From positions 37,262,001-37,326,000 of the forward strand of contig NC_134474.1 of the NCBI RefSeq assembly GCF_964194025.1: a stretch of DNA of 64,000 bases, in the 5' to 3' direction. How positions within the stretch are numbered: position 1 is the first letter of the stretch; the number at the start of each line of letters is the position of its first letter. Below, one piece after another: positions 57,001 through 60,000 of the stretch. Position numbers: made by a program. The DNA is from Convolutriloba macropyga (taxonomy: Eukaryota).

Positions 57001-60000
57001 TGTACGCATCCCAAAACAGTCTCTGTGAATCGCATACATGGAGACAAGTGAGCTGAATGGCTCTAAGATAACTTAATGCCCTTCGGGCGCTACCTGTTTA
57101 TCCCATTTTTGAGGACCATAAGTCAAATGGGTCAGACAAAAAATCGGTCACGCGAAAAATCGCATATAAAAAGTCCAATGGGACTAATATAATTGCTACA
57201 AACTTCGTTTGAGTGCAATTAAATGCTGTAACTTGATGCGTTCAACTGACCCAAATTTGACAAAACCTAATTCTAATTTTTTTGAATTTTACCGCGTAAG
57301 GCCGTGCCTCGAGGGCCATGGCTATGTCTCAGCGGCCCGTGGGACTTGATATTAATCTATCACAACCGAACGTGAGATCACAAGACACATTTTTCTCTTT
57401 CAGCTTAATTCGAATTCCAAAAAAATACGTTTATATTTATATCCTATTTTAAAACGTGGATCAAAACATCAATCAGCCAATCAGAAAACAGTATTAAAAT
57501 TTTCCCAGCAATAAAATATCTATATTTTGTACGTCTGCCGTTTTCACTAGCTCAGTTGCATCAATCCACAAACAGTGCCGTACATCATCGTTAAAATCGT
57601 CATATCAGAAGACTATTTTCGAGTCAAATCTGTACTTCCTGAATGATGTCAATCAGAAACATTTATAGCACACAATCCACCAGAAATCAACAATTGAGGA
57701 ATCAATAGAGAAAATCTTTTCAAAGCAAATTGAATTCAGATAACAACCGGCCTCATTTACGTGAGAAGACCGTGGTCCAACAAACTCATTAATAACAGGT
57801 CATTATTAAATAACCCCCAAAATTTATTAAATGCACAATTATTTTCCTTACTCAACACAGTAAAACCTAATGATCTACAGCTGACTCGCATGACAACGGC
57901 GCAATCATACTTTAAATTCCCGTTAAATTCTTCAACGAATCATGTAACTGTAAGAAGATTCACAGCACAAAAGGTCAGACAGGGATAACTCGCAATCACA
58001 CAGAATCAATCAATTTCCAAAGGTGTCATCATTTAGATACACAAAGATTCATATCGAATTTTTCTCCTAATGGTTGCATATGATGATCTATGATGAATAT
58101 ATGTACGCTCCTATTATGCTATATAAAACGTTTAGTGGTTAATAAGACATTACAAACTTGTCCATTCTAAGACGAGGTTGAACTAAGCATGGGCCACTCC
58201 TTCACACCAGGAATTTATGTCTCCTCAACAGTTTTAGTGAATCGCATACTTAGAGACTAGTAACCATGACCAAAGACGTTGTAATCTAAATTTAAAATAT
58301 ATGTCAGGAAATCAGAAGACCGTTGTGTGAATCAAGTCTCAGCTCCTGGGAAGAACAACTTGAATATTTTGAATGACATGGACTAGAACAGTTACCAGGT
58401 GACATAAAATCAGACAGGGATAACTTCGCAATCAAAGATAATCTTTTCTAACAGCGTCATCATTTCGTAAAGGTAATCATAATATGCATAAACAATCTTC
58501 TACCAACAACAGAGTCGACTATAGCACCATTTATTTAGCAGATTAAACCAAAAATAGCCGAAAATAGCCACCGTTGACGCGCCTGAAGCCCATCGTGATC
58601 GAAACATAAAAAAAGGAAGAGAGAAAATGACAGATTTTTTCCTAAAGTGTTTAATTCGGTGTGCAGTTTTAGTTAGATTCTCAAACTATACTTATTTCAG
58701 CATCTACACTGAAAGCTATTAAGCTTATTACAAATGATAGCTAGCAATGGCTCAAACGAACTTGGGTAATCTAAAGCACTGACTTAATGAACGGGCTTTA
58801 TCGTTTTATCCCGTTTTTGATTCTACTCTTTTGACACGGACCATATTCACTAGATTGCCCAATTCATTGAGTGAAAGCATTTTAAAAATACATTCGGTTG
58901 AAACAGTGAGTGAAGTAAGTCAAGAGTCAAACATGAAAATCGTGACTTTTGTAACGACAAACGTGATCAAAAGGTAAAGCAAATTTAGATGTAACAGAAG
59001 AGGTCCCGAAATACAATCCAAAGAAGTGAATGCAAAACATTTAACTACTGTATCTGACCAGCGGATGAAAATAAAAATGCCAGCCAAAAAGACAGAGTCT
59101 CAAAAGTGGTGAAACTAAAATAATCCAACTAAATGAACAAAAATATAAATATTTCTAAAGCTTCTGAAGCTCTAATAACCCACCCACAAGCCCTGAAAGG
59201 GGTTAATTAGCCACTAAAGCTACAAAAACTCCGAAAAAAACTGAAAAAACTAAAAAAAAAATTAATATATATTTACAAATTTCGCGAAATTGATATGTTC
59301 AAAACAATTTTTGTCTTTAGAATCTGTGCAGGAAGCCACCTGCCAGACCTAAAAAAAAGTCATTGGCCCTTAAAAACCAATAAACTCAGAAAATGACTTA
59401 AAAAATTTTTAAAAAAATGGCAAATTTTGTTGAAAAGTTTAAACTTTAAAATTCGTAAAATCTTAATATCTTCAGAACCATTTCATTGTCGCTAGTAATC
59501 CAATTTTAAGCTCAGAAAATTTTGAGTGGCCTAGAAAGATTGACAAATCCGAAATAGGATGAAAAATTTTCATCAGAAAATTTGAAAGAATTTTCACATT
59601 TATCAAATTTAAAAAATTTGTGATATTAAAAATTGAAAACCATTCCATTGCACCTATCAAATGTAATAATAACTGTTAAAACATTCTAAAAACTTCGAAA
59701 AAAAGCGAAAAAATAGTATCATTTTTCTTGTTTATGTTCGGAGTACGAAAACATATAGCTCATAAATGGTCACAAAAAGTACCTATATCTTGTTTGAAAA
59801 AGCTTTATCAACTTTGACAAACGTCAATTCAAGACTAATTGACAAAAATGACAAAAAAACGTAGAAAATTGCACTCTATGAGCAAAACAATTTTTTACAA
59901 AATCCAAATAACCGACTAATATTGGACGAATTGCACTTGAACAGCGCAAGGGCGCTCAATTCTATTGCAGCCTGCTTCAGACCTTTTTTGATTGATAGAG

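What the first reader, a model, noticed from the sequence alone, without database searches (positions are those of the whole stretch)
57735..58463. Singleton snoRNA paralogs in unrelated flanks suggest long-term selection on many copies
Seen: copies at 57975-58032 and 58410-58463 (also 39260, 47654, 47945, 48860, 49192, 51764) retain the exact guide, box D/D' and box C while their interiors and flanks are largely unalignable to the 160-bp family. Decayed U35-type relics sit nearby (~57735-57790, ~58303-58335). Inference: repeated rounds of amplification at this locus over a long period, with several lineages kept functional, rather than one recent accident.
Basis: partly seen in the sequence, partly recalled or inferred. 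Interest (0 to 1): 0.65.

Follow-up and report, generated by a model that had tools for sequence, protein, structure and literature searches.

The report
Two old, still-intact snoRNA gene copies
Two small guide-RNA genes for ribosomal RNA methylation sit in an acoel flatworm genome beside large arrays of their relatives, and they have kept every functionally critical letter while everything around them has mutated beyond recognition, which points to long purifying selection rather than anything mechanistically new.

Summary
The core observation holds. On the minus strand, 57975-58031 (G) and 58410-58462 (H) are compact box C/D snoRNA genes. Each has an exact box C (TGATGA), an exact 12-nt guide (AGTTATCCCTGT) and an exact box D (CTGA). 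Their flanks are no more alike than shuffled sequence.

Three corrections:
- **Organism.** The window is from an acoel flatworm, not a plant. Its two cutC exons are 100% identical to the NCBI Convolutriloba macropyga protein.
- **Not singletons.** Each copy is followed on the same strand by a degraded U35-type snoRNA. That is the gene order of the 860-bp repeat unit (R38, then U35, then a U60/snoR1 type), so G and H are remnants of old units.
- **Mixed list.** 48860 and 51764 are U35-type and 49192 is U60-type. 47945 and the pair 39260/47654 have alignable flanks.

Constraint shows in three ways. Five lineages with unrelated flanks keep the critical letters, while interiors are 43% identical and 5' flanks 25%. 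Critical columns are under-varied in the 860-bp array (5 of 21 polymorphic against 344 of 697) and in the 161-bp array (0 of 21 against 24 of 100).

Expression is untested. This is an ordinary birth-and-death snoRNA family; the unusual part is the copy number, 51 loci, in an animal.

The parts
58410..58463 (-). Copy H, a compact box C/D snoRNA of the R38 (snR38/snoR38-type) guide class. Box C is 58462-58457, the 12-nt guide 58425-58414, box D 58413-58410. The D'-like TTGA and a shared TGCGA motif lie just 5' of the guide.
   Evidence: Rfam snoR38 at 21.1 bits against a gathering score of 45
57975..58032 (-). Copy G, a compact box C/D snoRNA of the R38 guide class. Box C is 58031-58026, the 12-nt guide 57990-57979, box D 57978-57975. 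It has a D'-like GTGA.
   Evidence: Rfam snoR38 at 25.0 bits against 45
58280..58357 (-). Degraded U35/SNORD35-type snoRNA 52 nt downstream of copy H. The guide plus D' (58327-58312) has one mismatch to the intact type. Box C reads TGATTC and box D reads TAGA.
   Evidence: snoZ161_228, 17.9 bits; z=9.7, 0 of 500 shuffles
57735..57800 (-). Degraded U35-type snoRNA about 175 nt downstream of copy G. D' reads CTCA, box C is degraded (AATGAG), the guide has a mismatch at position 9 from D', and the terminal CTGA is kept.
   Evidence: 3 mismatches of 16; z=7.3, 0 of 500 shuffles
20474..38100 (-). Array of 21 units of about 860 bp. Each unit carries R38, then U35-type, then U60/snoR1-type snoRNA genes. 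Units are 85-90% identical.
16050..19760 (-). Five older, decayed units at the edge of the array. The R38 guide or box C is mutated in all 5.
40766..45000 (-). Young sub-array of 5 units of about 923 bp, over 95% identical. Their R38 copy has lost box C and its 5' half by an internal deletion.
39260..39620 (-). A pair of R38 copies (39546 with box C TGGTGA, 39260 intact). The pair is duplicated at 47654-48020.
47654..48020 (-). Duplicate of the 39.3-39.6 kb R38 pair, both copies intact. The 5' flank of 47945 aligns with the 860-bp family.
48855..49575 (-). Mixed run of one intact and two degraded U35-type genes and two U60/snoR1-type genes.
51762..51823 (-).
53009..54982 (-). Array of 12 units of 161 bp, each with one intact R38 copy built as box C, 22 nt, CTGA, T, TGATGA, 11-nt guide, CTGA.
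55062..55255 (-). A decayed R38 relic (55062-55109; box C TGGTGA, guide and box D mutated) and an intact outlying copy (55196-55255; 11-nt guide). The 3' flank of the intact copy aligns with the 161-bp family.

Best explanation
G and H are two old paralogues of a compact (about 55-58 nt) box C/D snoRNA.

**Likely function (inferred from the family).** The RNA assembles with the fibrillarin snoRNP on the box C/box D kink-turn. Its 12-nt antisense element lies immediately 5' of box D and pairs with large-subunit rRNA. The G opposite the fifth guide nucleotide upstream of box D is then 2'-O-methylated. This is the site guided by yeast snR38, Arabidopsis snoR38Y and human snR38.

**Origin.** Each copy is the 5' member of an ancient R38 then U35 gene pair, the same order as in the 860-bp repeat unit. 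They arose by DNA-level duplication of a multi-snoRNA unit.

**History.** Spacers, flanks and most of the snoRNA interior have since diverged to saturation, and the U35 partners have lost their boxes. Box C, the guide and box D of R38 were held unchanged by purifying selection. The large arrays next door are later rounds of the same birth-and-death process.

**Shown versus inferred.** Shown: the anatomy, the gene order, the flank divergence and the under-variation of functional letters. Inferred: transcription, snoRNP assembly, the methylation target in this species, and that selection still acts today.
For: - **Exact functional letters.** Both copies have exact TGATGA, AGTTATCCCTGT and CTGA.
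- **Box C is an independent test.** It was not part of the search pattern. TGATGA occurs 6 times in 23,902 nt of background minus strand, so finding it in the right 15-nt span of both copies has P of about 1.4e-5.
- **Guide identity.** The guide plus box D equals the consensus guide of Rfam snoR38 and of C. elegans ceN61. Tables in PMC8583080 equate AtsnoR38Y / 25S Gm2816 with yeast Gm2815 and human Gm4392 (passages read).
- **Old lineages.** Among six representatives of the lineages, critical positions are identical except for an alignment mis-registration and one nucleotide (311 of 330 as aligned). Interiors match at 242 of 558 (43%) and 5' flanks at 67 of 273 (25%).
- **Flanks.** They are indistinguishable from shuffles (lineage independence checked).
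- **Gene order.** Both U35 relics lie downstream on the same strand.
- **860-bp array.** Diversity is 0.024 for R38 guide plus D, against 0.125 for spacer. Over all functional columns it is 0.061, with block-permutation p=0.0014. R38 critical columns are polymorphic in 5 of 21 against 344 of 697 spacer columns (p=0.017). 14 of 20 copies are intact against 3.5 expected at the spacer rate.
- **161-bp array.** 0 of 21 critical columns are polymorphic against 24 of 100 spacer columns (p=0.006; 11 of 12 units aligned).
- **Decay is visible where it occurs.** Of the 51 R38 loci, 19 are not intact by the criteria: 11 carry point or indel changes in guide, box C or box D, 2 have only a one-letter box C variant, and 6 have no box C at the expected distance although their guide and box D are exact. 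A further decayed relic lies at 55062. The constraint is therefore not a mutational cold spot shared by all copies.
Against: - No Rfam family reaches its gathering score anywhere in the window. snoR38 scores 25.0 and 21.1 bits for G and H against 45.
- The guide sits at the terminal box D, whereas the Rfam snoR38 consensus and the snR38-group rows of the Neurospora table place it at D'.
- Folding shows no significant structure (z=-0.5 and -1.2). The terminal stem is weak: H has three A-U pairs plus one G-U, and G has none adjacent to the boxes.
- With 32 of 51 loci intact, each copy is highly redundant, so present-day selection on G or H individually should be weak.
- Copies were found by their guide, so guide conservation is partly ascertainment. 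Box C, the array statistics and the flank tests are not.
- Array units are related by descent, so the binomial p overstates significance.
- The rRNA of this species was not available, so the target pairing was not checked directly.
Confidence: 0.7

Rival explanations
1. G and H were the working R38 genes for a long time. Since the arrays expanded they have become redundant, are no longer selected or perhaps no longer transcribed, and are at the very start of decay.
For: - 32 of 51 R38 loci in the window are intact, so redundancy is extreme.
- Their U35 partners have already lost boxes C and D or D'.
- D' is degenerate in both copies.
- There is no convincing terminal stem in G.
- No other intact C/D candidate lies within 55.3-64 kb that would indicate a live transcription unit.
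Against: - The arrays themselves are 10-15% diverged. That is enough time for about 80% of neutral copies to lose at least one of 21 critical letters, since the spacer rate gives an expected intact fraction of 0.18. G and H show no critical change.
Confidence: 0.2
2. Short-tract gene conversion from the neighbouring arrays keeps rewriting the guide and boxes of G and H, so their identity needs no selection on these copies.
For: - Dozens of potential donors lie within 3-40 kb on the same strand.
- The identical stretches are contiguous: 17-25 nt around the guide and box D.
Against: - The identical tracts end exactly at the functional element.
- The adjoining interior is only 42-60% identical to every potential donor.
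- Box C is separately exact about 40 nt away, with diverged sequence in between. Two separate micro-conversions would be needed in each of two copies.
Confidence: 0.05
3. G and H are RNA-mediated or otherwise mobilised copies (snoRNA retroposons) that landed in unrelated sequence. That would explain the unrelated flanks without great age.
For: - Similarity ends within a few nucleotides of the snoRNA body.
Against: - There is no A-rich tail and no target-site duplication at either copy (sequence read).
- Both are followed by a U35-type relic on the same strand, the unit's gene order. A retrocopy of one mature snoRNA would not carry this.
- The interiors are themselves near saturation against all other copies.
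Confidence: 0.03
4. Chance survival: G and H are neutral relics that happen not to have been hit.
For: None beyond the ascertainment by guide sequence.
Against: - With interiors at about 42% identity (G versus H, 15 of 36) and flanks at chance, 21-22 critical positions staying unchanged in both copies is vanishingly unlikely.
- The independent box C test gives P of about 1.4e-5.
Confidence: 0.01

Closest known systems
snR38 / snoR38Y / human snR38 guide group (Rfam RF00213 snoR38; C. elegans ceN61)
   Same: The antisense element plus the adjacent CUGA is identical to the family consensus. The predicted target is therefore the same: the LSU rRNA G listed as yeast Gm2815, Arabidopsis Gm2816 and human Gm4392 (PMC8583080 table, passages read).
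   Different: - The guide lies at the terminal box D, not at D'.
- Total length is about 55-58 nt, against a 91-position model.
- Scores are 21-30 bits, below the gathering score of 45.
- In Arabidopsis the gene sits in a snoR19/snoR20/snoR38Y cluster (PMC2875012, passages read). Here it sits next to U35- and U60-type genes.
U35/SNORD35 group (Rfam clan CL00056: SNORD35, snoZ161_228) and the SNORD60/snoR1 group (CL00066)
   Same: The partner genes in the repeat unit carry the consensus guides of these groups at D'. The relics next to G and H retain most of the U35 guide.
   Different: All hits are below gathering scores. The two relics in the finding have degenerate boxes and a guide mismatch at position 9.
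Tandem snoRNA arrays with birth-and-death evolution (mammalian SNORD115/SNORD116 at the Prader-Willi locus)
   Same: Tandem repeat units each carry a C/D snoRNA. Young homogeneous blocks, older diverged copies and pseudogenes sit side by side (PMC4063771 and PMC3413130, search listing and abstract starts only).
   Different: Those are orphan, imprinted, placental-specific snoRNAs, one per host-gene intron. Here the guides are canonical, universally conserved rRNA guides, up to three genes share one unit, and no host-gene structure could be established.
Polycistronic snoRNA gene clusters of plants, and tandemly repeated clusters of euglenozoans
   Same: Several different snoRNA genes lie close together on one strand (U35 to U60 spacing is about 60 nt), and whole clusters are duplicated. 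Plant clusters are described in PMC2875012 (passages read). The euglenozoan arrays are recalled from memory, apart from the listing.
   Different: The organism is a bilaterian animal, where one snoRNA per intron is the usual arrangement (established knowledge). Copy number here is far higher than the 1-6 variants typical of Arabidopsis clusters.

Membership tests
Box C/D snoRNA (class) | Box C (RUGAUGA) near the 5' end | tested here: met
   G and H both read A-TGATGA, at 58032-58026 and 58463-58457. The background frequency of TGATGA is 6 per 23,902 nt.
Box C/D snoRNA (class) | Box D (CUGA) near the 3' end | tested here: met
   Exact CTGA at 57978-57975 and 58413-58410.
Box C/D snoRNA (class) | Short terminal stem bringing boxes C and D together | tested here: inconclusive
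   H has AAA/UUU plus one G-U directly flanking the boxes. G has no adjacent pairing (read). Minimum-free-energy folds are not better than shuffles.
Box C/D snoRNA (class) | Antisense element of at least 10 nt ending next to box D or D', complementary to a known methylation site | tested here: met
   The 12-nt element abuts box D and equals the guide of the Rfam snoR38 and ceN61 consensus. Pairing with this species' own rRNA was not testable because no rRNA lies in the window.
Box C/D snoRNA (class) | Internal D' and C' boxes | tested here: inconclusive
   D'-like GTGA (G) and TTGA (H) align with the CTGA of other lineages. C' is not recognisable in either. The 161-bp family has a perfect CTGA-T-TGATGA.
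Box C/D snoRNA (class) | Accumulates as a stable nucleolar RNA bound by fibrillarin, Nop56, Nop58 and Snu13 | not testable with these tools
   No expression data were reachable.
Rfam RF00213 snoR38 | Score at or above the curated gathering score (45 bits) | tested here: not met
   25.0 bits (G) and 21.1 bits (H). The best in the window is 30.2 bits. There were no hits at gathering thresholds.
Rfam RF00213 snoR38 | Guide located upstream of D', with C' and D further downstream | tested here: not met
   No CTGA lies within about 60 nt downstream of the guide-adjacent CTGA in G or H. Box C lies 38-42 nt upstream of the 11-nt guide core. This is the C ... D'-like ... guide-D layout.
U35/SNORD35 group (for the two relics) | Intact boxes C and D plus a contiguous guide of at least 10 nt | tested here: not met
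   At 58280-58357, box C reads TGATTC, box D reads TAGA and the guide has 1 mismatch. At 57735-57800, D' reads CTCA, box C is degraded and the guide is mismatched.
snoRNA retroposon (snoRT) | 3' A-rich tail and flanking target-site duplication | tested here: not met
   The 3' flanks read CCTTTTGTGC and TTTTATGTCA. No direct repeats were seen.

The most novel reading that the evidence does not exclude
An acoel flatworm keeps dozens of genes for three canonical, universally conserved 28S methylation guides (the snR38, U35 and U60 types, which all target the same 3' part of the LSU rRNA) in tandem arrays that are themselves under purifying selection. That would be a dosage-driven, rDNA-like amplification of housekeeping snoRNA genes in an animal. 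G and H would be the long-lived ancestral seed copies from which successive arrays were spun off.
Probability: 0.3. Interest if true: 0.6.

Novelty: new member of a known kind. Interest (0 to 1): 0.4.

Why it matters
The snoRNA repertoire of Xenacoelomorpha appears undescribed in the searched library. In one search, 15 papers hold both 'snoRNA' and 'acoel', and none of the 12 listed has either word in its title or abstract.

This locus gives a clean natural experiment on snoRNA gene turnover. One 48-kb stretch holds copies of at least four ages, from over 95% identical units to copies with saturated flanks. It shows which letters of a C/D snoRNA are indispensable: box C, 11-12 guide nucleotides and box D. 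It also shows how partner genes in the same unit decay independently.

If the arrays are expressed, they would be an unusual case of high-copy tandem organisation of canonical rRNA guides in a bilaterian. That bears on how snoRNA dosage is set outside the one-snoRNA-per-intron model. For genome annotation, covariance-model thresholds trained on plants, fungi and vertebrates miss every one of these genes.

Tried and rejected
- **Plant origin.** I first assumed it because the sub-threshold Rfam hits were to plant families (snoR38, snoZ161_228, snoR1, MIR6426, MIR7723). I rejected it. The MIR hits come from one long perfect hairpin that matches many plant and animal miRNA models alike, and the cutC exons are identical to a C. 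macropyga protein.\n- **Telo-box promoter motif.** 1 match against 1.6 expected. No signal.\n- **tRNA-linked expression.** No tRNA gene in the window.\n- **Coding explanation.** Pfam found only cutC among 24 ORFs scanned, plus two sub-threshold chance hits. Nothing overlaps G or H.\n- **Longer reading of the 860-bp-unit R38.** This is the Rfam architecture, 26511-26406, with a 7-bp TTGATTT/AAATCAA stem. The 20 units show no compensatory changes, and 4 of 20 have a changed downstream CTGA. G and H have no downstream box D, so this reading cannot apply to them.\n- **Third relic downstream of G.** 57605-57625 resembles a U35 fragment only weakly (z=2.6, 11 of 500 shuffles as high). There is no U60-type relic there (z=0.2).\n- **Tree of the 51 cores.** It is poorly resolved: 81 columns, 2 starred branches. 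G and H are long branches (0.32 and 0.74) without supported placement, so I draw no order of events from it.\n- **Profile search for further relics.** nhmmer recovered all 51 known loci and added only 55062-55109, a 5' half at 53010-53036 and a doubtful 38718-38758.\n- **Literature.** surfaced no report of tandem arrays of canonical rRNA-guide snoRNAs in an animal. That is not proof of absence. Supplementary tables of the Drosophila and Arabidopsis maps could not be opened and might list multi-copy clusters.\n- **Synteny in congeners.** It could not be checked.
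Full report
**What is at the coordinates.** All relevant features lie on the minus strand, and the window has no N.
- The guide-plus-box-D pattern occurs 50 times at up to 2 mismatches, against 0.11 expected. Allowing indels gives 51 loci.
- Copy G (57975-58032) and copy H (58410-58463) each read box C (A-TGATGA), about 35 nt of interior, the 12-nt element AGTTATCCCTGT, then CTGA.
- They are compact, at about 54-58 nt from box C to box D.
- No Rfam family reaches its gathering score anywhere in the window. With relaxed thresholds G and H hit snoR38 at 25.0 and 21.1 bits (gathering score 45), because the guide and adjacent CUGA equal the family consensus. 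The C. elegans ceN61 consensus has the same guide.

**Whose genome this is.** I first took it for a plant because the weak hits were to plant families. That was wrong.
- The 'MIR' hits at 15.2-15.6 kb are one long perfect hairpin that many plant and animal miRNA models match equally.
- A stop-to-stop ORF at 1022-1393 (minus strand) is a CutC exon. It is closest to the eukaryotic homologue among solved structures.
- The protein database holds an NCBI protein named 'copper homeostasis protein cutC homolog isoform X2 [Convolutriloba macropyga]'. Its first 64 residues match 12019-11828 at 100%, and its next block matches the second exon with no mismatch up to the isoform-specific tail (48 of 56 over the whole alignment).
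- The organism is therefore this acoel flatworm or a very close relative (lineage).
- I searched the exons separately and did not build a joined model.
- The snoRNA locus (16-58.5 kb) lies upstream of the cutC start codon on the same strand. Whether they share a transcript is unknown.

**The locus as a whole.** A self dot plot and motif searches show three guide types.
- *R38* has its guide at box D, at 51 loci.
- *U35/SNORD35-type* has CACGACGGTCTT next to D'. The 16-mer gives 35 matches at up to 3 mismatches, against 0.45 expected.
- *U60/snoR1-type* has CTGACACCTCTT next to a CAGA D'. There are 32 matches against 0.8 expected.
- Rfam alignments confirm the last two assignments by guide.
- The 860-bp repeat (21 units, 20.4-38 kb, 85-90% identical) carries R38, then U35 about 250 nt downstream, then the U60-type about 60 nt further.
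- A younger sub-array (5 units of about 923 bp, over 95% identical, 40.7-45 kb) has an R38 copy that lost box C by an internal deletion.
- A 161-bp array (12 units, 53.0-55.0 kb) carries R38 only, in a textbook symmetric layout.
- Older worn units lie at 16-19.7 kb. A duplicated R38-R38 pair lies at 39.3-39.6 and 47.7-48.0 kb. A mixed U35/U60 run lies at 48.9-49.6 kb, and a lone intact U35 at 51.8 kb.
- By strict criteria (exact TGATGA 34-48 nt upstream of the 11-nt guide core, exact 11-nt guide, exact CTGA), 32 of 51 R38 loci are intact.

- *Flanks.* blastn at word size 7 finds only 57967-58034 against 58402-58465 (75.4%, 69 nt). Smith-Waterman scores against 300 shuffles for G versus H give cores z=16.0, 5' flanks z=1.1, R38-U35 spacers z=-0.6 and sequence downstream of the relics z=-0.2. 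Against five other families, cores give z=7.1-13.1 and flanks z=-1.6 to 1.4. The stated refutation criterion, flanks as similar as cores, is not met.
- *Interiors.* These are not 'largely unalignable'. blastn aligns 40-62 nt at 74-80% to the 161-bp family. Outside the critical letters, G and H match its consensus at 17 of 36 and 21 of 35 positions.
- *D'.* It is not exact. GTGA and TTGA align with the CTGA of other lineages.
- *The other listed coordinates.* These mix three RNA species. 48860 and 51764 are U35-type and 49192 is U60-type.
- *Flank relationships elsewhere.* 47945 shares its 5' flank with the 860-bp family (z=39). 39260 and 47654 share flanks with each other (z=55). 55196 shares its 3' flank with the 161-bp family (z=21). 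The flank-independent R38 lineages therefore number five: the 860-bp clan, the 39260/47654 pair, the 161-bp clan, G and H.

**G and H are not singletons.**
- Each is followed on the same strand by a U35-type remnant. 58280-58357 matches an intact U35 gene with z=9.7, and 57730-57805 matches another with z=7.3 (0 of 500 shuffles in both).
- This is the gene order of the repeat unit.
- The H relic keeps guide plus D' with one mismatch, but has TGATTC for box C and TAGA for box D.
- The G relic has CTCA for D', a degraded box C and a guide mismatch, but keeps the terminal CTGA.
- The relics look closest to two different U35 subtypes (H to the 48889 type, G to the 51792 type). This hints that the R38-U35 linkage predates that split, but the evidence is modest.
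- In each old unit R38 kept all critical letters while its neighbour decayed. That argues for gene-specific constraint rather than a locally low mutation rate.

**Evidence for selection.**
- *Old lineages.* Among six representatives, critical positions (box C, the 12-nt guide, box D) are identical. The exceptions are a 3-nt alignment mis-registration of box C in two rows and the first guide nucleotide of 55196 (311 of 330 as aligned). Interiors match at 242 of 558 and 5' flanks at 67 of 273, which is the random level.
- *Ascertainment.* Because copies were found by their guide, the guide is ascertained. Box C was not, and its presence in the right span of both G and H has P of about 1.4e-5.
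- *860-bp array (20 aligned units).* Nucleotide diversity is 0.024 for R38 guide plus D, 0.007 for U35 guide plus D', and 0.061 over all 72 functional columns. It is 0.125 over 705 spacer columns (Mann-Whitney p=1.2e-4; block permutation p=0.0014).
- *Polymorphic columns in that array.* 5 of 21 for R38 and 3 of 24 for U35, against 344 of 697 for spacer (p=0.017 and 0.0002). The U60-type is not significantly constrained (7 of 20, p=0.15), and its box C is degenerate.
- *Intact copies in that array.* 14 of 20 R38 copies are intact against 3.5 expected at the spacer rate. The units are not independent, so the binomial p (3.6e-7) is only indicative.
- *161-bp array (11 of 12 units aligned).* 0 of 21 critical columns vary, against 24 of 100 spacer columns (p=0.006).
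- *Visible decay.* 13 loci carry substitutions or an insertion in guide, box C or box D, and 55062-55109 is a clearly degraded copy.

**What tempers the interpretation.**
- The exact guide alone proves nothing in young copies. The five 923-bp units carry box-C-less R38 copies with perfect guides. Amplification is therefore mechanical, presumably by unequal exchange, and not itself a sign of selection on R38.
- With 32 intact copies, selection on any single copy today should be weak. G and H may have been the working genes before the arrays expanded.
- Still, the arrays are 10-15% diverged. That is time enough for most neutral copies to be hit (expected intact fraction 0.18), and G and H are untouched.
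- Terminal stems are weak, and folding is not better than shuffles. This is common for C/D snoRNAs but gives no positive support.
- The core tree is too short to order events.
- Expression, the species' own rRNA and congeneric synteny could not be examined.

**Mechanism.**
- By the rules of box C/D guides (established knowledge), the RNA would form a kink-turn from boxes C and D and bind Snu13, Nop56/58 and fibrillarin.
- It would then direct 2'-O-methylation of the rRNA nucleotide paired to the fifth guide position upstream of box D. In this guide that position is a C, so the target is a G.
- Published tables equate this guide group with yeast Gm2815, Arabidopsis Gm2816 and human Gm4392, and place the guide of snR38, snoR38Y and human snR38 at D'.
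- Here the guide is at D. The RNA therefore works like snR38, but membership of the Rfam family fails on both score and architecture.

**Verdict.** G and H are worn copies of the R38-U35 unit rather than singletons, the coordinate list was mixed, the organism is an acoel, and function remains inferred. Mechanistically this is an ordinary snoRNA birth-and-death family. The scale of the arrays for canonical rRNA guides in an animal is the part worth following up.

Noticed in passing
window 26311-26440 (minus strand) and the equivalent stretch of each 860-bp unit: A block of about 115 nt between R38 and U35 is as conserved among the 20 units as the snoRNA guides (diversity 0.04-0.07 against a mean of 0.118). 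It matches no Rfam family apart from the tail of the snoR38 alignment, and contains a possible small hairpin. Its function is unknown. It could be an exon of a host transcript, a processing element or another small RNA.
   Followed up: partly
window 26406-26511 (minus strand): The R38 of the 860-bp unit can also be read in the Rfam snoR38 architecture: guide at D', a downstream TGCTGA/CTGA pair, and a perfect 7-bp TTGATTT/AAATCAA terminal stem. The 20 units show no compensatory changes, and 4 of 20 have a changed downstream CTGA.
   Followed up: partly
window 40766-45000: The youngest sub-array (5 units, over 95% identical) propagates an R38 copy with box C deleted and a U35 copy whose box C reads TGGTGA. 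Its U60-type guide is intact. It also contains a repeated 143-aa open frame on the plus strand with only a sub-threshold Slu7 hit, probably spurious.
   Followed up: partly
window 12019-11828 and 1372-1022 (minus strand): Two exons of a cutC copper-homeostasis homologue match the NCBI C. macropyga isoform X2 with no mismatch up to that isoform's own tail. The gene lies downstream of the snoRNA locus on the same strand, 4 kb from the first worn unit.
   Followed up: yes
window 15240-15607: A long, near-perfect inverted repeat (MITE-like hairpin) matches more than ten unrelated plant and animal miRNA models below threshold (MIR821 at 79.9 bits against 249). It is a trap for taxon calls and miRNA annotation.
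   Followed up: yes
window 39250-39259: The intact R38 copy at 39260 is followed directly by a run of nine T, a possible Pol III-type terminator. Its duplicate at 47654 has only TTTT. No tRNA gene is in the window.
   Followed up: no
window 57605-57625 (minus strand): A weak third U35-like fragment (GTCTTCTGA followed by ATGACG) lies downstream of the G unit, with z=2.6 and 11 of 500 shuffles as high.
   Followed up: partly
window 1629-3230: Arrays of 30-32-bp tandem repeats are built around the palindrome TCTGATCAGA, present in both orientations (an inverted relation between 1-3 kb segments).
   Followed up: no
window 50-52 kb, 56 kb, 60-63 kb: A separate dispersed repeat family (55-85% identity, partly inverted) includes the sequence just upstream of the box-C-less R38 copy at 52474 and a hairpin that hits MIR7723 below threshold at 60926-61155.
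   Followed up: no
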